Shown here piece after piece: positions 1,938 to 57,500 of a stretch of DNA of 64,000 nucleotides; position 1 is the stretch's first letter; each line of letters opens with the position of its first letter. Both the position numbers and the translations under genes were made by a program. Source of the stretch: Polyangiales bacterium (GTDB lineage: Bacteria > Myxococcota_A > Polyangia > Polyangiales > Ga0077539); assembly GCA_046351535.1 (NCBI GenBank), contig JAXLYG010000005.1, positions 293,334 to 357,333 of the forward strand. Reading direction: 5' to 3'. The notes under the pieces are model-generated. The model ran no database searches. It was given only the letters and a program-made list of their open reading frames with translations, and had not been told where the DNA came from.

Positions 1938-1980
1938 CGCCTCCCCTTCCCCATCCTGCCCACAAGCAGTCCCCCAGCGC

Positions 1981-2848
1981 CTCCGCTCACGCGTCGCCCG
2001 CGTGGGCCTTGTAGCGCTGCGCGATCTCCGCGGCCGTGCGCAGGGTGGTACCCCTCACCGCCCGCTTCCGCGCGCCCTTTCCCCGCCAGCGCCCGCAAGG
2101 GCTGCGTCGCGGTGATCGTCGGCCGACCGCGTGGCGGACGCGCGGCGCCACCGCTTCCGTCGCGCGCGCCCTTGCCCCGCGTGAGTCTGACCGCCATTGG
2201 GGAGTTGACAGCGCCAGACGCTTCCCGTCGCGCCTGGGGTTCGGCCCGCGTGAGAGGGACGCGCGTGACGCGCCCAGGGCGATACGCGCGTGACGCGCCC
2301 GGGCGATACGCGCGTGACGCGCCCAGGGCGATACGCGCGTGAGGCGCCCAGGGCGATACGCGCGTGACGCGCCCAGGGTTCGCCCCCAAGGGATGTACAC
2401 GATCGGGGGCTCAGCCTGGGCTATGACGAGGCACGGATCACCCTCTTCGAGGGTTCAGCAGAGAGAGCCTCGCCATGCCTTCTGAACCGGTCGAAGACCG
2501 GTGATCCGTGCCTTGATGAAGCCCAGGCCGAGCCCCCGATCGCGTACATCCCTTGGGGGGCGAGCCCTGGGCGCGTCACGCGCGTATCGCCCTGGGCGCG
2601 TCACGCGCGTCCCTCTCACGCGGGCCGAACCCCAGGCGCGACGGGAAGCGTCTGGCGCTGTCAACTCCCCAATGGCGGTCAGACTCGACTGGCGGGGAAA
2701 GGGCGCGCGGAAGCGGGGTGAGGGGTACCACCCTGCGCGCCGCCGCAACCTCGCGCGCCGAACCCCAGGCGATCCCCGTCGAGCACCACCGCCTCCGCTC
2801 ACGCGTCGCCCGCGTGGGCCTTGTAGCGCTGCGCGATCTCCGCGGCCG
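1981..2848. repeat. Complex palindromic repeat region made of segments A, B, C, D, a centre, D', B', E and A
   Basis: A direct repeat of a 63-bp gene 3' end lies at 1981-2043 and 2783-2848. Inverted arms at 2044-2090 vs 2690-2735 and at 2184-2395 vs 2560-2690 are near-exact reverse complements. The centre (2396-2560) is itself an extended palindrome. Arm copy number of an internal 25-bp repeat differs (about 4.5 vs 2). Confidence 0.8.
2266..2395. repeat. Tandem 25-bp repeat (gcgcgtgacgcgcccagggcgatac), about 4.5 copies; two inverted copies at 2566-2615
   Basis: Read directly from the sequence. Each unit contains the near-palindrome gcgcgtgacgcgc. Confidence 0.85.
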
Positions 2849-3275
2849 TGCGCAGCACGAACTCCGACGCGTCGGCGTGCACCATGAGCTGCAACCCCGG
2901 CATCAGCGTCACGTGCACCCAGCGCTCGCCTGTCACGCCCTCGGCGCGCGCCACCGCCGCCACGGGAGCCTCCGCGGGCTTCGTCGTCGGCGGGAGCAGC
3001 GCCTTCAGCGCGGCGTCGCTCGCGCCTCGCACCTTCGGAACGATCACGTCGAAGCGCATCCCGGCGGCGCGCATCTGCGCGATCGCACGCACCTGAAGCA
3101 CCGCGCGCGGGGAGTAGAAGGTGTTCACCCCGTGGTCCTCGGCGCGCTCGACGAGGCCCGCCTCGATCCACTTGCGCAGCGTGCGGTCCTTGATGTTGCC
3201 CAGGCGGCAGAGCGGACGCGTGCGCATCCATCCTTCGGGCGGCGCGGGGAGCTTCGGAGGCGGTCGTCTCGTCAT
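2799..3275 (-). CDS. MerR-family HTH transcriptional regulator (small, about 158 aa)
   Basis: The N-terminal segment LCRLGNIKDRTLRKWIEAGLV followed by YSPRAVLQVRAIAQMRAAGMRFDVI fits the MerR HTH plus wing pattern. The last 19 codons are duplicated as a fragment at 1981-2043. Confidence 0.6.
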   Translation of the reverse strand: MTRRPPPKLPAPPEGWMRTRPLCRLGNIKDRTLRKWIEAGLVERAEDHGVNTFYSPRAVLQVRAIAQMRAAGMRFDVIVPKVRGASDAALKALLPPTTKPAEAPVAAVARAEGVTGERWVHVTLMPGLQLMVHADASEFVLRTAAEIAQRYKAHAGDA

Positions 3276-5560: not shown

Positions 5561-6982
5561 TCAGCGCGGCGCGAACGCGACGCTGCGGTACGTGGTGTTG
5601 AGCGGCGCCGTGGCGACGGCCGTGAGCGACGCGGTGGCCGACGTGACCGAGACGTCGAGGCGGAGCAGCCGCGCGCGCGACTCCGTGGTGGTGGCGTAGA
5701 GCACGTAGTCCGAGCCGTTGGTGCGCCCCGTGAGGCCGCGGAGGCCGTTCGTGAGGCCCGTCACGGTGAGGGGCTGCATGGTCCAGGTGCCGCCCACGAG
5801 GCGCCAGTAGAGCAGTCCGCCGCCCGAGGCGGGGGTGCGGTCGTCGGCGACGAAGAGCACGTCGGCGGCGCCGTTTCCGTCGCGGTCGAAGGCCGCCACG
5901 CCGTAGGGCGAGAGGGTCATCGTGGTGGGGAAGCCCGGCGCCACCGAGAGCGTCGCGCCCGCCGCGCGAGGCAGCGGCGAGGTGGTGAACACGCCCGAGC
6001 CCGCGGGCGTGGAGCCCGTGACGAAGAGCTGCGTGCCGAAGGCCGAGACCCAGCGGTACACGTTGGTCGTGAGCAGGGGGATGCCCGCCGTCGCGCCGCC
6101 GTAGGGCGTGTAGAAGAGGTTCCCGTCGCTCACGAGCGCGTGGATCGACCAGAACTCGCTGCCGTCGACGGTGGCGACGGAGCGCATCGCGAGGCGGTCG
6201 GCCATGGCGCCGACGGTGGTGCGCGTGTCGACCACGCCCGCGGCGTTGATGCGCGCGATCACGCGCGGTCCGCTCGTGGAGTTGGGCGTCGTCGTGCCGA
6301 CGGGGATGCCGTAGCCGCCGAGCACCACGTAGGCGCCGTTGACCGAGCGGAAGAGCGCCCCCTCGGCCGTCGCGTTGCCCGTGATCGTGAGGATGTTGTT
6401 GGCCCCCGAAGGCGCCGTGGGGAGCGCGATGGGCGTGCCCACGGGCGTCGCCGTCGCGCCGTTGTAGATCTCGATGTTCACGGGCGCCGCCGTGGCCGCG
6501 AGCGAGGCGACGCCGTCTCCGACGCGGAGCACCCAGATCGTGTCGTTCCCCGTGACGGGCACGTCGGGGGTGACGGGCACGTCGGGCGTGACGGGCACAT
6601 CGGGCGTGACCGGAACGTCGGGCCTCACGGGCACATCGGGCGCCACGGGGATGTCGGGCGTCACGGGGATGTCCATCGTGACGGGCACATCGGGCGTGAC
6701 CGGAACGTCGGGCACGACGGGCACATCCATCGTGACGGGAACGTCCATCGCGACGGGCGCATCGGGGGTGACGGGCGCGTCGGGGGTGACGGGCGCGTCG
6801 GGCGTGACGGGGGTGTCGGTGGCGACGGGGACGTCGTCGGTGACGGGCGTGTCGGGCGTCGAGGGCGTGTCGTTGACCGCGGCGTCGTCGGTGGGCGTCG
6901 AGCCTCCACCCGTGTTGCCGCGCGCGGAGCACGCCATCGAGAGAAGCATCGCGAGAAGGAGGGGCTGCGGTCGGAAGCTCAT
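5561..6982 (-). CDS. Secreted lipoprotein with a Pro/Thr/Asp-rich tandem linker (PVTPDV x about 20) and an unknown C-terminal domain
   Basis: Signal peptide and lipobox (LLSMACSARG). An 18-nt tandem coding repeat at about 6500-6850 encodes the repeated D(T/V/A)PVTPD units. Confidence 0.6.
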   Translation of the reverse strand: MSFRPQPLLLAMLLSMACSARGNTGGGSTPTDDAAVNDTPSTPDTPVTDDVPVATDTPVTPDAPVTPDAPVTPDAPVAMDVPVTMDVPVVPDVPVTPDVPVTMDIPVTPDIPVAPDVPVRPDVPVTPDVPVTPDVPVTPDVPVTGNDTIWVLRVGDGVASLAATAAPVNIEIYNGATATPVGTPIALPTAPSGANNILTITGNATAEGALFRSVNGAYVVLGGYGIPVGTTTPNSTSGPRVIARINAAGVVDTRTTVGAMADRLAMRSVATVDGSEFWSIHALVSDGNLFYTPYGGATAGIPLLTTNVYRWVSAFGTQLFVTGSTPAGSGVFTTSPLPRAAGATLSVAPGFPTTMTLSPYGVAAFDRDGNGAADVLFVADDRTPASGGGLLYWRLVGGTWTMQPLTVTGLTNGLRGLTGRTNGSDYVLYATTTESRARLLRLDVSVTSATASLTAVATAPLNTTYRSVAFAPR

Positions 6983-12617: not shown

Positions 12618-13664
12618 ATGTACCCGCACACTCTGCTGGTGAAGCGCTACGCATGGATCCTCGCGCTGGCCCTTCTCGGGGGGTGCGCCGAGGGCAACGA
12701 GGTCATCGGCAGCTCCGACGCCGCGGATGACCTCGTCACCGACGACACCGTCACCACCGACGACGCCCCCGAAGTCGCGCCCCCCGACGCCGCAGACGAG
12801 AGCCCCATCGACGCGGTGATTCCCGACGCGGTGAGCGACACGGCGATGGACCTCGCGCCCGACGTCGCGCCCGATGTGACCGTCGATGTGACCGTCGACG
12901 CGGTCGAAGACACGGGCCTCGTGTGTGACGCGGGTCGCTCGGTGTGCAGCGGGCGCTGCGTGCTCGTCGCGAGCGATCCGGCCAACTGCGGACGCTGCGG
13001 AAACGCCTGTCCCGCAGGGCTCGCGTGCGTGGGCGGCGCCTGCGCGTGCCCGTCGCCCCTCACGCTCTGCGACGGCGCGTGCGTCGACACCCGCGTCGCG
13101 CCGACCCACTGCGGACGCTGCGGCAACGCGTGCCCCGTGGGCGCCGCGTGCTCGGCGGGCGCGTGCACGTGCGCCGTCGGATCGCTCTGCGGCTCCACCT
13201 GCATCGACACGCGCAGCAGCAACACCAACTGCGGCGCGTGCGGCAACGCGTGCCCCGCGGGCGAGGCCTGCTCCGCGGGCGCGTGCGTGTGCGGCGCCAC
13301 GCAGATGCGCTGCAGCGGCGTCTGCGTCGACACGCGCACGAGCGCCACCAACTGCGGCGCGTGCGGGCGGGCCTGCACCGCGGGCCAGAGCTGCATCTCG
13401 GGCGCGTGCGCGTGTGCGTCGGGGTCCACCATCTGCTCGGGCGCGTGCGTGAACACCTTCGCCGATCGAATGAACTGCGGCGGCTGCGATCGGTATTGCG
13501 GTGGGGACTGTGTGGGCGGCACCTGCCTCCCCGCGTGCAACCCCGGTCAGACGCGTTGCGGGAGCGTGTGCGACAACCTCTCAACCAGCGTCTACAACTG
13601 CGGTCGCTGCGGGAACATGTGCGGCGGGACGCGGCTCTGCGTCGGCGGTACGTGTACGCCGTAA
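12618..13664 (+). CDS. Secreted lipoprotein built of about 7 Cys-rich tandem repeats (myxobacterial Cys-rich repeat type)
   Basis: Signal plus lipobox (LALLGGCAEG). Repeats of C-x-G-x-C...CVDTR...NCG(A/R)CGNACP.G.AC every about 40 aa. Confidence 0.65.
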   Translation: MYPHTLLVKRYAWILALALLGGCAEGNEVIGSSDAADDLVTDDTVTTDDAPEVAPPDAADESPIDAVIPDAVSDTAMDLAPDVAPDVTVDVTVDAVEDTGLVCDAGRSVCSGRCVLVASDPANCGRCGNACPAGLACVGGACACPSPLTLCDGACVDTRVAPTHCGRCGNACPVGAACSAGACTCAVGSLCGSTCIDTRSSNTNCGACGNACPAGEACSAGACVCGATQMRCSGVCVDTRTSATNCGACGRACTAGQSCISGACACASGSTICSGACVNTFADRMNCGGCDRYCGGDCVGGTCLPACNPGQTRCGSVCDNLSTSVYNCGRCGNMCGGTRLCVGGTCTP

Positions 13665-23043: not shown

Positions 23044-24588
23044 ATGCGCTCCACGAAGCACCGCCACGTCGCCCTCGCCACGTCGCTCGCCGCCTCGCTC
23101 GCCTCGACGGCGGCCCTCTCGCAAGACCTCCAGTGCCGCACCTGCGAAGACTGCTCGCAGCTCCTCTCGACGCCCAACGCGCGCGTCGAGCTCGGCACCG
23201 ACCTCGCGCTCCACGGCGCGGGGCCGTGCGTGGTGATCCGCGGCGAGGGCGCTCGCTTCAACGGCCACGGACACGTCATCCTCGCGCAGCCCGCGGGCGG
23301 CGTGGCGCTGCGCGTCGAGGCCGCGAACGCCGTCGCGCGACACCTCAGGGTCACGGGCGCCGACGTGGGCGTCGAGCTCGTGGGCGCCCGCGACGCGACC
23401 CTCTACGACATCACCGCGGAGGCTCGCGCGAAGGGCTTTTCCGTCGAGCGATCGCCGAACGCGCGCTTCGAACGCGTGCACGCGTCGGGCGGTCGCGTGG
23501 GCCTCTCGTTCGGCGCCTCGGCCAACGGGAGCTGCGACGCGAACACCACGATGCAGAGCCCCGGCGCAGTGGTGCTGCGCTCGACCTTCGAACGTGCCAC
23601 GACGGGCATCGCAGCGTGTGACGCGCGCCCCGTGCTCACGGGAAACACCGTGTCGCGCAACGCCGTGGGCGTCGTGCTCGGAGACCCCGCGGCGGGGACG
23701 GGCCCTGGCGGCGCGGCGCCCTACGACGCGTGCGCGTGCGCGCCGACGGTCGAGGCGGTGCATCCCGGCACGGTGGCGGTGTACAGCTCGGGCTGCGGGA
23801 GCTGCCAGGTGCACGAGGGCTGGATGCCCGGTCTGCGACGGCGCGGCGCGGACATCGTGGTGCGCGAGAGCGGCCCCGACACGCAGTCCGCGCAGGAGCG
23901 CTTCGACCGCTTCGGCTGGCGCTGCATGCCCGGCGTGATGGACTCGCTCGGAATCCCCGGCTGCGTGCCCAACTACGCGTGCGTGACGAGCGGAGCTTTT
24001 TCGAAGCGCCGCGAAGGCGACGCGCAGCTCATGGTCGACGTGCCGATCAACGGCGCAGACGACGCGTTCCGCTTCGCGAGCGAGTGCGCCGAGGGGGCGC
24101 GCGGACGCTACGCCCGCGGCGCCCGCTGCGTGCTCCAGGGGCTCGCGGACAACCGCATCTGCGGCAACCGCACGCTCGACCTCAGCGCCGTGGGCGGTGC
24201 TTCACGCGCGGGCGGCGCGCGCGACCGCTGCGATCACGCCGAAGGGTGGAGCGAGGGAGGTCACGCAGGCTGCGCGCTCACCTGCGACGAGGCTGTTCCA
24301 TCGACCGAGGCGCCTCCGCCGAGGGAGCCCGCGCTGATCGAGCCGCAGGCAGGTCCGTCACCGAACGCGATCGTGCCCGACACGACGCAGCCTCCGGCGA
24401 CGCCGCTCGTGCTGCCGACCGCCGCGCCTCCGAGCCCCGCGGGGAGCGTCGCGCCTGCGGTGAGAACGCCGACGCGCACAAGCCCCGCTGCGCAGCGCGC
24501 GCCCTCGGCCGACGAGCCGCTCTACATCGTGGGCGGCATCGTGGCGGCGGTGCTCGTCGGCGCGTGGGCGTTTCGAAAGAAGGGGTGA
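23044..24588 (+). CDS. Secreted protein, probably with a right-handed parallel beta-helix, and a C-terminal TM anchor
   Basis: Signal peptide. Repetitive G/V/A-rich segments with regularly spaced Asn/Gly. A C-terminal hydrophobic helix (IVGGIVAAVLVGAWAF) followed by RKKG. Confidence 0.4.
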   Translation: MRSTKHRHVALATSLAASLASTAALSQDLQCRTCEDCSQLLSTPNARVELGTDLALHGAGPCVVIRGEGARFNGHGHVILAQPAGGVALRVEAANAVARHLRVTGADVGVELVGARDATLYDITAEARAKGFSVERSPNARFERVHASGGRVGLSFGASANGSCDANTTMQSPGAVVLRSTFERATTGIAACDARPVLTGNTVSRNAVGVVLGDPAAGTGPGGAAPYDACACAPTVEAVHPGTVAVYSSGCGSCQVHEGWMPGLRRRGADIVVRESGPDTQSAQERFDRFGWRCMPGVMDSLGIPGCVPNYACVTSGAFSKRREGDAQLMVDVPINGADDAFRFASECAEGARGRYARGARCVLQGLADNRICGNRTLDLSAVGGASRAGGARDRCDHAEGWSEGGHAGCALTCDEAVPSTEAPPPREPALIEPQAGPSPNAIVPDTTQPPATPLVLPTAAPPSPAGSVAPAVRTPTRTSPAAQRAPSADEPLYIVGGIVAAVLVGAWAFRKKG

Positions 24589-24998
24589 CCCTCACCCCGT
24601 CCCTCTCCCGCGAAGCGGGAGAGGGTGCCTGTTGGTAGCTGCCATGCCCTCACCCTGCCCTCCCGGCAGAGCCGGGAGAGGGTGTCAGCGCATCGACGAC
24701 GAAGCGCTCGGTGGTGCCGACGAAGCGCTCGGTGGCGGTGCCGACGAAGCGCTCGGTGGCGGTGCCGACGAAGCGCTCGGTGGCGGTGCCGACGAAGCGC
24801 TCGGTGGCGGTGCCGACGAAGCGCTCGGTGACGGTGCTGACGAAGCGCTCGGTAACGGTGCTGACGAGGATCGACGTCACGCTTCGTCGCCTCGACACCC
24901 TCTCCCGGCTCTGCCGGGAGAGGGCCGGGGTGAGGGCATGGCAGCTACCAACAGGCACCCTCTCCCGCTTCGCGGGAGAGGGACGGGGTGAGGGTCAC
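24584..24998. repeat. Composite element: a perfect roughly 105-bp inverted repeat flanking about 7 tandem 24-bp repeats, between convergent stop codons
   Basis: The left arm (24584-24685) is the exact reverse complement of the right arm (24893-24998), and both include the GGTGA of the flanking genes' stops. Each arm holds two internal hairpins (ccctctcccgcgaagcgggagaggg; ccctcccggcagagccgggagaggg). The centre, at 24700-24870, is tandem copies of gacgaagcgctcggtggcggtgcc. Confidence 0.85.
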
Positions 24999-25996
24999 CA
25001 CGCGAGCACGATCTTGCCGAGCGTGGCGTTGCGCTCCATGAGCGCGTGCGCGTCGCGGATCTGCGACATGGGCATCACCGCGTCGACGACGGCCTTGAGC
25101 TTCCCGCGCGCGAAGAGCGGCAGCACGGAGCGCGAGAACTCCCGCGCGACGCGGGCCTTCTCTTCGAGCGGACGCGCGCGCAGCGTCGTGCCGAAGATCC
25201 GCAGGCGCTTCATGAGAATCGGCGCGAGGGGCACCTCGGCGTGCATTCCGCCCATGAACGCGATGAGCACGAGGCGTCCGAGGGGCGCCATCGCCTGGAG
25301 GTTGTCTTCGAGGTACGAAGCTCCGACGGGGTCGAGCACCACGTCGACGCCGTGGCCGTGCGTGAGGCGGTCGACCTCGGCGGCGAAGCGTCCGTCCTTC
25401 ACGACGACGCCGTCGGCGAAGCCGAGCTTGAGGATGCGATCGAGCTTGTCGGCCGTGCGCACCGTGGCGAGCGCGCGCACCGAGGCCGCGCGACAGAGCT
25501 GCGCCGCGGCCGTTCCCACCCCGCTCGCGGCGGCGTGAATGAGGGCCGTCTCGCCCATCACCGCCTGGGCCTGGTTGAAGAGCGCGTCCCACGCCGTGAG
25601 GAACACCTCGGGGATCGCCGCGGCTTCGGAGAAGGGCATGCCCTCGGGCACGGGCATGAGCTCCCGCGCGTGCGCGACGACGCGCGTACACATCGCGCCG
25701 CCGCCCGTGATCGCCATGACCCTGTCGCCGACGGACCAGTCTCGCACGCCCTCGCCGAGCGCCGTGACGGTGCCCGCGAACTCGAGGCCCGGCACGTCGG
25801 CGGGATAGCCCGGCGGCGCGGGGTAGTAGCCCTTTCTCTGCATGATGTCCGCGCGGTTGAGGCCCGCCGTGGCGACCTCGACGAGCACCTCGCCGGGCCC
25901 CGGGGCGCGCACGGGCACCTCTCCGATCTCGAGCACGTCGAGGTCACCAGACTCACGGATGCGTACGGCCGTCGCGGTCTCGCTCATGGTGCGCAA
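24995..25996 (-). CDS. qor: NADPH:quinone oxidoreductase / zeta-crystallin (MDR superfamily)
   Basis: N-terminal GroES-like domain. Cofactor site AAASGVGTAA. About 330 aa. Confidence 0.8.
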   Translation of the reverse strand: MRTMSETATAVRIRESGDLDVLEIGEVPVRAPGPGEVLVEVATAGLNRADIMQRKGYYPAPPGYPADVPGLEFAGTVTALGEGVRDWSVGDRVMAITGGGAMCTRVVAHARELMPVPEGMPFSEAAAIPEVFLTAWDALFNQAQAVMGETALIHAAASGVGTAAAQLCRAASVRALATVRTADKLDRILKLGFADGVVVKDGRFAAEVDRLTHGHGVDVVLDPVGASYLEDNLQAMAPLGRLVLIAFMGGMHAEVPLAPILMKRLRIFGTTLRARPLEEKARVAREFSRSVLPLFARGKLKAVVDAVMPMSQIRDAHALMERNATLGKIVLAW

Positions 25997-26103
25997 TGGG
26001 TATCACGACGACGCGTCGCGCGGGGCGATACGGCGATGCGGCGTGAGGTCGCCGCGCCCGCGTGCGGAGCGCCACGCGGCTGAGGTAGTCTCCGCGCCCT
26101 CGC

Positions 26104-30316: not shown

Positions 30317-30752
30317 GGTGAAGTCTCCCCTCCGTGACGGCGTTGATTCACCGGAGCACAAAGCAGCGCGCGTGCCGCGGCTAAAACTCACAAAATGCCT
30401 ATATTTAAGCTGTTTTAGCGAGTCGAGCCCGTGTGGCTCGGTCGGCACACCGGGCCGCGAGGGCACAGCGCGAGGTCCGCGGCGCGCTTCGGCGACCTGA
30501 CACGGCGGCCACGCGCGCTCGCGCTGCGGGTCGGTGACGAGCAAGACGAACGACGGACGCGGCGTCGTGCTCGCGGTCGCACGGGCGATGGGAGCGTCGC
30601 GCGAGCGTCAAGATCATGGCGCCAGAGGGACGCTTCGGAGGGGGTGTCGCCAGGGACCGGGTGGGGCGTCCGGGGGGCTGGTGCGCATCGTGCCTTGCTC
30701 CGGGCTTTCAACCCCATGACGTTCGTCATGGTGGGGCCACGAGGAGAGGGCA
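30317..30752. promoter_or_regulatory. Divergent intergenic region with a locally AT-rich segment (30380-30430: aaactcacaaaatgcctatatttaagctgtttt)
   Basis: Only conspicuously AT-rich 50 bp in the window, lying between divergently transcribed VWA and cytochrome genes. Contains a tatattta -10-like hexamer. Confidence 0.35.
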
Positions 30753-54546: not shown

Positions 54547-57500
54547 TCAGCTCCCCGAGGCGGCGGTCCACACGTAGCCCGCGAGGCCCTCGTTGGCGTA
54601 GCCGCTGCGAAGGGCCGAGTCTCGCTCGGCCACGCTCGTGGTGTAGAGGTGGTCGTTCGAACCGCCCTGATAGAGCCGATAGAGCGGGACGGCGCCGCAC
54701 ACGGGCGACGACGCGATGTAGCCCATGACGCCCTCGTTGGTGCCCGGCACGAGCCCCTCGCAGTTGCTCGCCGTCGTGTAGAAGTGCTTTCCGTACGACA
54801 TGTAGCAGCGGTAGAAGGGCACCAGGCCCGGGGCCGGGGCCGCGTAGAGGTAGTAGTAGGGCGAGAACTCCACGCGGAAGCCGCAGCACGACGCCTCCGC
54901 GGCGCTGGCCGTGTAGAAGTGCTCGCCGCTCGCGTGATACGAGCGCGAGATGGCGACGCGGCAGCCGCCGCGGTCGTCGCAGACGCCGTTGCAGTTGTCG
55001 TCGGCGAGGTTGCACGCCTCCGCAGGAACCGACCCGCACGCGCCGCAGTTCGAGGGGTCCGTGCGGAGGTTCGACTCGCAGCCGTCGGCCGCGGCGCCGT
55101 TGCAGTTCCCGTAGCCCGACACGCACGAGACGACGGTGCAGCCGCCGCTCGCGCAGCCCGTCGCGGCGGTGTTGGCGAGGGCGCACGCGCGGCCGCACGC
55201 GCCGCAGTTCGACGGGTCGCTCGCGGTGCTCACCTCGCAGCCGTCGGCGGGGTTGCCGTTGCAGTTCGCGAAGCCCGCGTTGCAAGACGCCACGGCGCAG
55301 CGCCCGGAGGCGCACGCCGCCGTGGCGTTCGAGAGCGCGCAGCGCATCCCGCAGCCGCCGCAGTTCGAAGCGTCGGTGCCGAGCGACGCCTCGCAGCCGT
55401 CGGAGGCCGCGCCGTTGCAGTCGCCGAAGCCCGTGTTGCACGCCACGACGGTGCAGCGGCCCGACGCGCACACGCCCGCCCCGTTCGACGGCGCGCAGCG
55501 CACGCCGCAGCCGCCGCAGTTCGACTCGTCGCTCGACGTGAAGACCTCGCAGCCGTTGGCGGGGTTGCCGTCGCAGTCGGCGAAGCCCGCGTTGCAAGAC
55601 GCCACGGCGCAGCGCCCGCCGACGCAGGTCGCCGTGGCGCTCGGGAGCGAGCAGGCCGTGCCGCACGCGCCGCAGTTGCGCGCGTCGGAGGCGAGCGTGA
55701 CCTCGCAGCCGTTGGTGGGGTTGCCGTCGCAGTCGGCGCGCCCCGCGTCGCACGCGGCGATGTCGCAGCGCGCGCCCGTGCACGCGGGCGTTCCGCCGGG
55801 CGTGGCGCAGCGCACGCCGCAGCCGTTGCAGTTCGAAGGATCGCTGCGGGTGTTGACCTCGCAGCCGTTGGCGGGGTTGCCGTCGCAGTCGGCGAAGCCC
55901 GCGTTGCAAGACGCCACGGCGCAGCGCCCGCCCGCGCACGACGCGGTGCCGTTGGTGATCGCGCAGCCCATGCCGCAGGCGCCGCAGTTGCGCACGTCGG
56001 TGGCGAAGGTGGCCTCGCAGCCGTTGGAGGAGTCGCCGTCGCAGTCGCCGAGGCCCGCGGCGCACGAGGCGATGCGGCAGCTCCCGCGCTCACACGCCGC
56101 CGACGAGCCGGGGAAGGAGCACGCGTTGCCGCAGCGTCCGCAGTGCGAGGTGCTCGTCGCGAGGTTCACCTCGCAGCCGTTGGAGGCGACCATGTCGCAG
56201 TCGGCGAAGCCCGCATCGCAGGTCGCAATGGCGCAGCGTCCCGTCGCGCACGCCGCCGTGGCGTTGGGGAGCGAGCAGGCCGTGCCGCACGCGCCGCAGT
56301 TGCGCGCGTCGGAGGCGAGGTCGACCTCGCAGCCGTTCGAGGCCGTGGCGTCGCAGTCGGCGCGGCCCGTCATGCACGCGGCGATGTCGCAGCGGCCCGC
56401 CATGCACGCGGGCGTTCCGCCGGGCGTGGCGCAGCGCATGCCGCAGCCGTTGCAGTTCGCGGCGTCGCTGAGGGTGTTCACCTCGCAGCCGTTCGAAGGG
56501 TCCATGTCGCAGTCGGCGAAGTTCGCCTCGCACGCGGTGATCGCGCAGCGGCCCAACGCGCAGGCGCCCGTGGCGTGGGCCGGCGCGCAGGCGCGGTCGC
56601 AGGCGCCGCAGTTGCGCGCGTCGGCGCGCACGTCGACCTCGCAGCCGTTGTCGGCGTTGCCGTCGCAGTCTTGAAAGCCCATCACGCACGACGTCACGCA
56701 GCGCCCGCCGAGGCAGCCGGGGAAGGCGTTGGGCCGCGACGGGCACGCCGTTCCGCAGCGTCCGCAGTGCGAGACGGCGGTGTTGGTGTCGACCTCGCAG
56801 CCGTTGGTGGGGTTGCCGTCGCAGTCGCCGAAGCCCGTCGCGCACGAGGCCACGGCGCACCGCCCCATCGCGCACGAAGGCACCGCGTTGGGCGGATTGC
56901 ACGCCGCCCTGCACGCGCCGCAGCTCGTCTCGTCGGCGTTGAGGTCGACCTCGCAGCCGTTGTCGGCGTTGCCGTCGCAGTCGGCGAAGCCCGCCTCGCA
57001 CGCGAACTCGCAGCGGCCCGACGAGCACGACGAGCGCGCGTGGGGCCGCGCGGGGCAGGCGCTCCCGCAGGCGCCGCAGTTCGAGGCGTCAGTGAGCGTG
57101 TTGGTCTCGCAGCCGCTGGCCGCGGCGCGGTCGCAGTCGGCGAAGGGCGCCGTGCACGCGCCCACGGCGCACATGCCGTTCATGCACGCGGCGGTGGCGT
57201 TGGGCGCGGCGCAGCGGTTGTCGCAGCGGCCGCAGTGGGCGAGGTTCGACACGTTGTCGACGCACGCGCCGCCGCAGCACGAGAGCGTGCCGGGGCAGGG
57301 GCGCGACGCGGTGCAGCCCATCACGCAGGTGCTCCCGACGCAGAGCATCCCCGCGGGGCAGTGGTCGTCGGTGACGCACTCCACGCAGGCGCGGGTCGTA
57401 CGGTCGCAGCGCCTCGCCAGCGGGATCGCGCTCCCCGCGTCGACGCCCGCGTCGCCGAGCAGCGCCGCGCAGCCCTCGTCGTCGCGGCAGCCGGGGAGGC

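What the first reader, a model, noticed from the sequence alone, without database searches (positions are those of the whole stretch)
24584..24998. Perfect 105-bp inverted repeat sharing both convergent stop codons, enclosing 7 tandem 24-bp repeats
The left arm ggtgaccctcaccccgtccctctcccgcgaagcgggagaggg... and the right arm are exact reverse complements. Each ends in the stop codons of the flanking genes (GGGTGA and, on the other strand, TGGTGA). Each arm carries two GC-rich stem-loops, and the core is (gacgaagcgctcggtggcggtgcc)7. It is architecturally similar to the element at 1981-2848, since both are inverted arms plus tandem repeats. It looks like a bidirectional terminator cassette or a MITE that inserted at, or created, both gene ends.
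Basis: seen in the sequence. Interest (0 to 1): 0.5.

Follow-up and report, generated by a model that had tools for sequence, protein, structure and literature searches.

The report
Inserted palindrome built from BoxC/PIT repeats
A 406-bp non-coding palindrome, made of four copies of a widespread bacterial "triplex-motif" repeat (BoxC/PIT) around a 24-bp minisatellite, was recently inserted between two abutting gene ends in a myxobacterial genome; it is a new arrangement of a known repeat, not a new kind of element.

Summary
The feature is real, but the inverted repeat is not perfect. The arms are 103 and 106 nt and differ by one mismatch and a 3-nt indel. The core holds 7.2 copies of a 24-bp unit.

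Each "GC-rich stem-loop" is a copy of a described repeat, the BoxC / PIT / "TMECO" intrastrand-triplex motif (Holder et al. 2015, PMC4666352). Three of the four copies satisfy all 9 purine-motif triads; the fourth is degenerate.

The 406-bp block (24589-24994) is an insertion:
- It is present in the closest relative (98% nt identity).
- It is absent from every relative at 78-96% nt identity, where the same two stop codons lie 1-7 nt apart.

So both gene ends existed before the element arrived.

I found no target-site duplication. No second copy of the composite arm turned up in three public DNA collections, and the core unit gave only chance single hits in metagenomes. There is no Rfam match, no protein homologue and no U-tract terminator.

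MITE status and a terminator role therefore remain unproven. The most likely reading is a selfish or neutral, structure-prone repeat cluster. I rate it a new variant of a known kind, of modest interest.

The parts
24589..24994 (.). The whole inserted element, 406 bp: two inverted arms plus the core.
   Evidence: It is absent from L164, L165, L175, L176, L001 and L003, where TGA-C-TCA stands in its place. It is also absent from L004 and L005-7. It is present in L163.
24584..24686 (+). Left arm of the inverted repeat, 103 nt. Its first 5 nt (GGTGA) belong to the + gene.
   Evidence: It is about 96% complementary to the right arm, with 1 mismatch and a 3-nt indel.
24894..24999 (+). Right arm of the inverted repeat, 106 nt. 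Its last 5 nt (TCACC) belong to the QOR gene.
24589..24625 (-). Outer left BoxC/PIT unit. The G-rich triplex strand is the - strand: CCCTCTCCC-GCTTCGC-GGGAGAGGG-ACG-GGGTGAGGG.
   Evidence: One search found 9 of 9 purine-motif triads. One search found an 11-bp hairpin at -22.7 kcal/mol.
24626..24646 (+). Arm spacer TG-CCTGTTGGTAGCTGCCATG, the only relatively T-rich stretch of the element.
   Evidence: A 27-mer spanning it has no match in the genome or metagenome collections, and its 19-mer has none in the viral collection.
24647..24682 (-). Inner left BoxC/PIT unit, degenerate. It has lost 2 nt of the middle block and 1 nt of loop 2.
24687..24893 (.). Core between the arms, 207 bp. GACGAAGCG lies 5-11 nt inside both arm ends in inverted orientation, which looks like a remnant of a longer palindrome.
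   Evidence: and pair I15.
24697..24867 (+). Minisatellite: 7.2 copies of CGACGAAGCGCTCGGTGGCGGTGC.
   Evidence: No other array was found elsewhere.
24898..24936 (+). Inner right BoxC/PIT unit: CCCTCTCCC-GGCTCTGCC-GGGAGAGGG-CCG-GGGTGAGGG.
   Evidence: One search found 9 of 9 triads.
24937..24957 (+). Arm spacer, the reverse complement of 24626-24646.
24958..24994 (+). Outer right BoxC/PIT unit: CCCTCTCCC-GCTTCGC-GGGAGAGGG-ACG-GGGTGAGGG.
   Evidence: One search found 9 of 9 triads. The first 25 nt beyond the QOR stop of L163 match it at 24 of 25 positions.
23044..24588 (+). Left flanking gene, 514 aa. It has a signal-peptide-like N-terminus, a weak NosD/beta-helix match and a C-terminal membrane anchor. 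Its stop codon is TGA at 24586-24588.
   Evidence: Orthologues of 514-517 aa occur in L165, L175 and L005.
24995..25987 (-). Right flanking gene, an NAD(P)H:quinone oxidoreductase of 330 aa. Its stop codon is TCA on the + strand at 24995-24997.
   Evidence: It is identical to P0121, NCBI MFO0644882.1, from a Polyangiales bacterium MAG.

Best explanation
The element is a 406-bp non-coding palindromic repeat cluster. It was recently inserted exactly between the stop codons of two convergent genes that previously abutted with a 1-nt spacer.

**Composition**
- Each arm is a head-to-tail pair of BoxC / PIT / TMECO units, separated by a 21-nt spacer.
- One unit is a C-block, a G-block and a second G-block, which can fold into a hairpin plus a purine-motif third strand.
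- The two arms are inverted, with the third-strand blocks pointing outward.
- The core is a 24-bp minisatellite that probably expanded by replication slippage inside an originally more complete palindrome.

**Shown**
- The identity of the units.
- That the block is an insertion, and its boundaries.
- That the element is non-coding.
- That both gene ends are preserved.

**Inferred**
- The block arrived as one piece, because no such unit occurs elsewhere in the 64-kb window or in about 60 kb of relatives' DNA.
- It arrived by the still unknown process that spreads BoxC/PIT repeats, either mobilisation in trans or structure- or microhomology-driven illegitimate recombination. No target-site duplication was made.
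- It persists as selfish or neutral DNA.
- Its likely consequences are by-products. It separates two formerly overlapping convergent transcription units by 406 bp. It gives both mRNAs the same strong 3' hairpin. It creates a locus prone to cruciform, triplex and slippage events.
For: **Identity of the units**
- The pattern CCCTCNCCC-loop-GGGNGAGGG-N3-GGGNGAGGG is described in PMC4666352.
- Three of the four units give 9 of 9 allowed triads.
- The same 37-nt unit occurs in 30 stretches of viral contigs.
- It occurs on 28 plasmids of alpha-, beta- and gamma-proteobacteria, always unannotated.
- It occurs in 3671 of 5426 E. coli genomes.
- Pairs of it occur in more than 118 GTDB genome stretches, including Archangium and a Sandaracinaceae MAG.

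**Insertion**
- With the element removed, the window aligns without disturbance to relatives. L164 is collinear at 94-95% nt identity and lacks window 24600-24994.
- The empty site reads AAGGACTGA-C-TCACCACG.
- L163, at 98.0% nt identity, continues from the QOR stop into the element.

**Non-coding**
- The internal 102-aa ORF has no homologue among 5.8 billion proteins.
- Rfam gives nothing near any gathering score.

**Imported as a block**
- There is no other PIT unit in the window or in the relatives' loci.

**Fits the family's behaviour**
- TMECO loci are hypervariable and the motif is often present or absent between strains.
- My own E. coli araD-araA comparison shows a discrete 57-nt indel containing a PIT unit, with no duplication.
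- Inverted pairs and larger clusters of the unit are common.
Against: - No second copy of the composite arm or of the core was found, so mobility of this particular composite is not demonstrated. The source genome beyond the 64-kb window could not be searched.
- Loop 1 is 7 or 9 nt, longer than the 3-6 nt of the published search pattern.
- Precise loss in several relatives, rather than one gain, is not strictly excluded. The direct repeats GGTGA and TCACC lie at the flanks and inside the termini, and L004's spacer ACCC resembles a possible deletion scar.
- A functional role such as termination or mRNA stabilisation was not tested.
Confidence: 0.65

Rival explanations
1. It is a functional bidirectional terminator or insulator cassette. 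Each convergent transcript runs into the same 11-bp GC hairpin right after its stop codon. Read-through RNA would fold into a roughly 100-bp stem. The element would end transcription or protect the 3' ends of both mRNAs, and it would stop convergent transcription from colliding.
For: - Both transcripts read the identical sequence after the stop: UGA, then a hairpin of -22.7 kcal/mol, then UGCCUGUUGGU.
- The whole element folds at -342 to -368 kcal/mol.
- In relatives the genes abut with no room for any terminator, so an insertion here could be advantageous.
- From general knowledge, REP hairpins are known to stabilise upstream mRNA.
Against: - No U-tract is present. The terminator scan finds none inside the element, and only a junction hairpin that lies in coding sequence.
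- PIT elements showed no promoter or terminator activity in E. coli, as summarised in PMC4666352.
- Relatives manage without the element.
- A minisatellite and a decayed fourth unit are not what a selected cassette would need.
Confidence: 0.15
2. It is a classical MITE: a deletion derivative of an insertion sequence with about 105-bp terminal inverted repeats, moved by a transposase supplied in trans.
For: - It has long terminal inverted repeats, is small (406 bp), is non-coding, and shows a clean presence/absence polymorphism.
Against: - No target-site duplication is present. The flanks are TGA and TCA.
- No further copy exists in the window or in the genome, metagenome and viral collections.
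- The termini are copies of a pan-bacterial repeat rather than IS ends.
- No transposase was found between distant inverted PIT copies in other genomes.
Confidence: 0.1
3. It arose in place. A pre-existing single PIT unit was duplicated and inverted by template switching at a stalled fork, giving palindrome amplification. Slippage then produced the minisatellite.
For: - Triplex and hairpin motifs stall polymerases and are linked to local rearrangement.
- The near-identical arms and the expanded repeat are typical products of replication errors.
Against: - No PIT unit or any remnant of one exists at the empty sites of the relatives, where only 1-7 nt separate the stops.
- The spacer and core sequences have no local source in the window.
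Confidence: 0.07
4. It is an assembly artefact: a foldback chimera in a metagenome-assembled genome.
For: - The source appears to be a MAG, and long palindromes are a known kind of assembly artefact.
Against: - An independent short-read contig, seen in 3 samples, shows the same junction between the QOR stop and the unit.
- The arms differ by a mismatch and an indel, which a simple foldback would not produce.
Confidence: 0.03

Closest known systems
BoxC / PIT (potential intrastrand triplex) / TMECO motif of E. coli and other Proteobacteria (Bachellier et al.; Hoyne & Maher; Holder et al. 2015, PMC4666352)
   Same: - It has the same three 9-nt blocks in the same order: CCCTCTCCC, GGGAGAGGG, GGGTGAGGG.
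- It has the same 3-nt second loop, including the CCG 'type B' form.
- It is intergenic.
- It occurs in inverted pairs.
- It is present or absent between close strains.
   Different: - Loop 1 is 7 or 9 nt because the Watson-Crick stem carries 2-3 extra pairs. The Sandaracinaceae MAG L093 shares this form.
- There are four units arranged 2+2 with the third strands pointing outward. The usual pair has them pointing inward (86 of 155 loci).
- The arms are about 96% identical over about 105 nt, spacers included.
- The core is a 24-bp x 7 minisatellite.
- The host is a Polyangiales myxobacterium.
REPINs and BIMEs (REP doublets and clusters mobilised by RAYT transposases)
   Same: - Short GC-rich extragenic hairpins are combined into inverted doublets and mosaics.
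- They are non-autonomous and make no target-site duplication.
- They are often found at gene 3' ends.
   Different: - There is no GTAG-type 5' tetranucleotide.
- No RAYT is known for BoxC/PIT, and none was seen here.
- The unit carries a third block that REPs lack.
Bacterial MITEs (Correia/NEMIS, ERIC, RUP, Chunjie and others)
   Same: - Size and non-coding nature.
- Terminal inverted repeats.
- Ability to fold into one long hairpin.
- Insertion next to genes without destroying them.
   Different: - There is no target-site duplication.
- No multi-copy family has been demonstrated.
- The ends are copies of a cross-phylum repeat rather than IS termini.
Rho-independent (intrinsic) terminators
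   Same: A GC-rich hairpin directly downstream of a stop codon, on both strands.
   Different: - There is no U-tract: 4-5 U in the first 11 nt.
- Four hairpins plus a minisatellite is far more than a terminator needs.

Membership tests
BoxC/PIT/TMECO triplex motif | Three 9-nt blocks in the order CCCTCNCCC, GGGNGAGGG, GGGNGAGGG, with at most one mismatch | tested here: met
   Three of the four units are exact. The fourth (24647-24682) has a 2-nt deletion in one block.
BoxC/PIT/TMECO triplex motif | The third block can form reverse-Hoogsteen triads (G*G-C, A*A-T, T*A-T) with the hairpin's purine block | tested here: met
   9 of 9 triads are allowed in the three intact units. This is a sequence rule only.
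BoxC/PIT/TMECO triplex motif | First loop of 3-6 nt between the 9-nt blocks, as in the published search pattern | tested here: not met
   The loops are 7 nt (GCTTCGC) and 9 nt (GGCTCTGCC). The extra bases pair, which leaves 3-nt hairpin loops. I therefore treat this as a variant form of the family.
BoxC/PIT/TMECO triplex motif | Second loop of 3 nt | tested here: met
   The loops are ACG and CCG.
BoxC/PIT/TMECO triplex motif | Intergenic and multi-copy within a genome | tested here: inconclusive
   It is intergenic. All four units in the 64-kb window sit in this one locus, and the rest of the genome could not be searched.
BoxC/PIT/TMECO triplex motif | Forms an intrastrand triplex in vitro | not testable with these tools
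   This needs CD or NMR on oligonucleotides, as in PMC4666352.
REPIN / BIME (RAYT-mobilised REP) | REP hairpin preceded by a conserved GTAG-like tetranucleotide | tested here: not met
   The units begin CCCTCACCCC, and no GTAG lies next to the stems.
REPIN / BIME (RAYT-mobilised REP) | A cognate RAYT gene in the genome, typically flanked by the repeats | not tested
   The window's proteins were not screened. Genes lying between distant inverted PIT copies in four other genomes were ordinary genes.
MITE | Terminal inverted repeats | tested here: met
   The arms are 103 and 106 nt and about 96% complementary.
MITE | Target-site duplication flanking the element | tested here: not met
   The filled site is ...GGGGTGA[element]TCACCACG and the empty site is ...GGACTGA-C-TCACCACG. 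No direct duplication is present.
MITE | Multiple dispersed copies | tested here: inconclusive
   None in the window, in GTDB species genomes, in JGI metagenomes or in IMG/VR. The source genome itself is not in those collections.
Intrinsic terminator | GC-rich hairpin followed immediately by a U-tract | tested here: not met
   The hairpin is present and the tail is UGCCUGUUGGU. The scan finds no terminator-like site inside the element.

The most novel reading that the evidence does not exclude
BoxC/PIT units may be the terminal recognition structures of a still unknown mobilisation system that makes no target-site duplication. Candidates are single-strand HUH-like transposition or structure-guided recombination.

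On this reading, the 406-bp element is a non-autonomous 'PIT-ended' mobile element caught in a clean pair of filled and empty sites. Its insertion boundaries coincide to the base with the outer ends of the third-strand blocks. That would explain how one 37-nt non-coding motif came to be shared by Proteobacteria, Myxococcota, Planctomycetota and Chloroflexota.
Probability: 0.15. Interest if true: 0.6.

Novelty: new variant of a known kind. Interest (0 to 1): 0.3.

Why it matters
How BoxC/PIT triplex motifs spread, and why they are nearly identical across distant bacteria, has been unexplained since the 1990s.

This locus offers a dated, base-precise pair of filled and empty sites:
- The insertion arose between about 5% and 2% nucleotide divergence.
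- A block bounded by these motifs was inserted without any duplication and without damaging two abutting genes.
- The site therefore defines boundaries that a mechanistic model must reproduce.

The scans also show the motif in Myxococcota and, in MAGs, in Planctomycetota, Chloroflexota and Armatimonadota. That is beyond the proteobacterial range reported.

In practice, such elements break short-read assemblies, as seen where L163 ends inside the hairpin. They could also mislead terminator or sRNA prediction in high-GC genomes.

Tried and rejected
- **Rfam at a permissive E-value:** only chance microRNA-like hits far below the gathering scores.
- **Exact look-up of the QOR protein:** not on record. 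The source was later identified through cluster members instead.
- **27-mer of the arm spacer in genome and metagenome contigs, and the 19-mer in viral contigs:** no hit.
- **23-mer of the minisatellite unit in metagenomes:** four single matches inside unrelated coding sequences. None was an array and none had a PIT unit nearby.
- **Protein search with the internal 102-aa ORF, as a way to find other copies through spurious gene calls:** nothing. The ORF's 100% third-position GC in the repeat suggests the 24-bp unit may derive from a coding fragment (...TERFV...), but this was not resolved.
- **Literature search by raw sequence strings:** irrelevant hits. The family was found through a 'boxC' search.
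- **A transposase between distant inverted PIT copies in L120, L032, L034 and L063:** only ordinary genes, including an amidase and a UvrA-like gene.
- **The allele in L002 and L169-L174 as a second insertion at the same site:** rejected. It is a different downstream gene with an unrelated 419-nt repeat-rich spacer, which means a rearrangement whose breakpoint is at the QOR stop.
- **An alternative reading with a 5-nt duplication of TCACC:** rejected as less parsimonious. It requires the target to supply by chance 8 nt that complete the left unit.
- **Similarity between this element and the palindrome at 2044-2785:** only the general architecture and a short CCCTCACC string at the ends are shared.
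Full report
**1. Observation**

The window has 72.4% G+C. Between 24584 and 24999 lie two inverted arms.
- The left arm is 24584-24686 (103 nt) and the right arm is 24894-24999 (106 nt).
- The arms are exact complements over the outer 72 nt and the inner 27 nt.
- In between, the left arm has one substitution and lacks 3 nt. The repeat is therefore about 96% complementary, not perfect.

Tandem Repeats Finder reports 7.2 copies of a 24-bp unit at 24697-24867 with 96% matches. The sequence shows four identical central units, a 21-nt first unit and two diverged last units.

The outermost 5 nt of the arms (GGTGA and TCACC) contain the stop codons of two convergent genes.
- One is a 514-aa secreted, membrane-anchored protein at 23044-24588 on the + strand.
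- The other is a 330-aa NAD(P)H:quinone oxidoreductase (QOR) at 24995-25987 on the - strand.

The region folds far better than shuffled sequence, with z = -24.7 on the + strand and -21.1 on the - strand.

**2. What the arms are made of**

Each arm holds two units of the form CCCTCACCCC-NN-CCCTCTCCCG-loop-CGGGAGAGGG, separated by the spacer TG-CCTGTTGGTAGCTGCCATG.

The unit is not specific to this genome.
- The exact pattern occurs in 30 stretches of IMG/VR contigs with 62-77% G+C.
- It occurs on plasmids of Azospirillum, Methylobacterium, Cupriavidus, Variovorax, Enterobacter, Pantoea and Sphingomonas, always in unannotated DNA.
- It occurs in 3671 of 5426 complete E. coli genomes, for example between araD and araA.

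A literature search led to Holder et al. 2015 (PMC4666352). This is the BoxC repeat of E. coli. It was rediscovered as the PIT (potential intrastrand triplex) element and then named TMECO. The paper reports the following:
- The pattern is 5'-CCCTCNCCC N3-6 GGGNGAGGG N3 GGGNGAGGG-3'.
- It was found 3610 times in 262 proteobacterial genomes.
- It is always intergenic and is sometimes found in inverted pairs.
- It forms a purine-motif triplex in vitro but not detectably in vivo.
- It has no promoter or terminator activity.
- It is associated with hypervariable loci.

Read on the G-rich strand, three of the four units here give 9 of 9 permitted triads. Their second loops are ACG or CCG. The inner left unit is degenerate.

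The one departure from the published pattern is the first loop, 7 or 9 nt instead of 3-6. The Watson-Crick stem is longer here, 11 bp with a GAA loop. A Sandaracinaceae MAG (L093) has the same 7-nt form.

**3. It is an insertion**

The QOR protein is identical to NCBI MFO0644882.1 from a 'Polyangiales bacterium' MAG.

Contigs of relatives were recovered through QOR orthologues.

| Loci | nt identity to the window | State of the site |
|---|---|---|
| L163 | 98.0% | Runs from the QOR stop into CCCTCTCCCCGTCCCTCTCCCGCGA, then the contig ends. This matches the element at 24 of 25 nt. |
| L164 (1.36-Mb contig of GCA_964268295.1), L165, L175, L176, L001, L003 | 94-96% | The two genes are present and the stops are separated by one base: ...AAGGACTGA-C-TCACCACG... 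|
| L004 | about 85-88% | The spacer is 4 nt. |
| L005-7 | about 78% | The spacer is 7 nt. |

A BLAST of L164 against the window is collinear on both sides and lacks window 24600-24994.

One gain on the branch leading to the window and L163 is more parsimonious than three or more precise losses.

The QOR end (TGGTGA) is the same with and without the element. The other gene stops at the same position, and only its last codon differs. The element therefore did not create the gene ends.

The inserted block runs from the first base of the left third-strand block to the last base of the right one (24589-24994). I see no target-site duplication.

GGTGA and TCACC each recur just inside the opposite terminus. 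Microhomology-mediated insertion or deletion is therefore conceivable.

**4. Is the composite a family?**

- No other arm, spacer or core copy occurs in the 64-kb window.
- A 27-mer of the arm spacer is absent from 185,579 species-representative genomes and from the JGI metagenomes. The 19-mer is absent from IMG/VR.
- The minisatellite unit matches only four single sites inside unrelated genes.
- The internal ORF has no protein homologue.
- No PIT unit occurs in the rest of the window or in about 60 kb of relatives' loci. The four units must therefore have arrived together.

- The hits cover alpha-, beta- and gamma-Proteobacteria, Myxococcota (Archangium, Sandaracinaceae) and Geomonas.
- In MAGs they also cover Planctomycetota, Chloroflexota and Armatimonadota.

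Across 155 fetched loci the usual architecture is an inverted pair with the third strands facing inward, a palindrome of about 96 nt (86 cases). Direct pairs are rare, with 9 cases.

The window's arrangement, two units plus core plus two inverted units, is the largest PIT palindrome in the sample at 416 nt. The next largest are 274 nt (L102) and 246 nt (L093). The L093 pair sits with a 94-nt core between two long convergent ORFs.

**5. Function**

Both convergent transcripts read the same sequence after the stop. It is a hairpin of -22.7 kcal/mol followed by UGCCUGUUGGU, which is not a U-tract.

Together with the reported lack of terminator activity of PIT elements, this leaves the terminator idea possible but unsupported.

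The decayed fourth unit, the minisatellite and the absence of the element from relatives point instead to selfish or neutral DNA. Its effects would be by-products:
- It spaces two formerly overlapping transcription units.
- It gives both mRNAs a 3' hairpin.
- It makes the locus prone to structure-driven instability.

In E. coli the araD-araA PIT unit is likewise a discrete 57-nt indel without duplication. This fits the family's behaviour.

**6. Verdict**

The element is a new architectural variant of the known BoxC/PIT/TMECO repeat family in a Polyangiales myxobacterium. Interest is modest.

Its main value is a base-precise pair of filled and empty sites for a repeat whose mode of spread is unknown.

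Noticed in passing
window 1974-2855: A second, unrelated long palindrome lies at about 2044-2785. Its arms are 121 nt at 99% complementarity, and it has 25-bp tandem repeats at 2259-2378. It is flanked by 70-nt direct repeats (1974-2043 and 2786-2855, 99% identical) that duplicate the 3' end of a - strand gene (...AQRYKAHAGDA*). Its ends contain GGTACCCCTCACC / GGTGAGGGGTACC. Unlike the element studied here, it has a long flanking duplication.
   Followed up: partly
L169-L174 and L002, directly after the QOR stop: A third allele occurs in relatives whose QOR differs from the window's at 15-16 residues. The QOR stop is followed by an unrelated 419-nt spacer full of 30-70-nt direct and inverted repeats (units of the type CGTTTCGCCGTCCGTCAAG...TTCGAGGTCTCGAA). 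A different 254-aa gene follows. The rearrangement breakpoint lies exactly at the QOR stop codon.
   Followed up: partly
window 26015-26047 and about 30511-30523, compared with L164: The 95% relative L164 carries about 2.9 kb, including a 624-aa gene, directly upstream of QOR. It carries another 1.2 kb or so near window 30520. The window lacks both. L163 shares the window's arrangement upstream of QOR.
   Followed up: no
loci L057, L062, L074, L078, L081, L085-L087, L092, L095, L103, L106, L115, L120: Exact BoxC/PIT unit pairs occur in MAGs labelled Planctomycetota, Chloroflexota and Armatimonadota. This is outside the proteobacterial range reported in PMC4666352. Contamination of the MAGs was not checked.
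   Followed up: no
L093 1106-1273 and 3790-3925 (Sandaracinaceae MAG): One inverted PIT pair encloses a 94-nt core between two long convergent ORFs. A second cluster lies 2.5 kb away. The units have the same 7-nt first loop (C-GAA-G) as in the window.
   Followed up: partly
L040, L166, L167, L168 (E. coli araD-araA intergenic region): A 57-nt block containing a PIT unit replaces TCG in some strains. In the aligned strains that lack it, an 85-nt REP-containing unit is present in 1, 2 or 3 tandem copies.
   Followed up: partly
L069 1116-1997 ([Erwinia] mediterraneensis) and L153 1871-2181: PIT units are embedded in tandem arrays of longer repeats, spaced roughly 140-215 nt and 75 nt apart, with 5-7 units in a row.
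   Followed up: no
window 55034-57236; 13104-13366; 6551-6859: Three large tandem repeats lie elsewhere in the window. One has a period of 156/312/468 nt with up to 14 copies. One has a period of 120 nt with 2.2 copies. One has a period of 18 nt with 17 copies. Whether they are coding was not examined.
   Followed up: no
window 24582-24598, - strand: The left junction forms a small hairpin, GGGGTGAGGGTCACCCC, followed by TTCTTTCGAA. This was the only terminator-like hit near the element. Half of it is coding sequence of the + gene, and it exists only because of the insertion.
   Followed up: no
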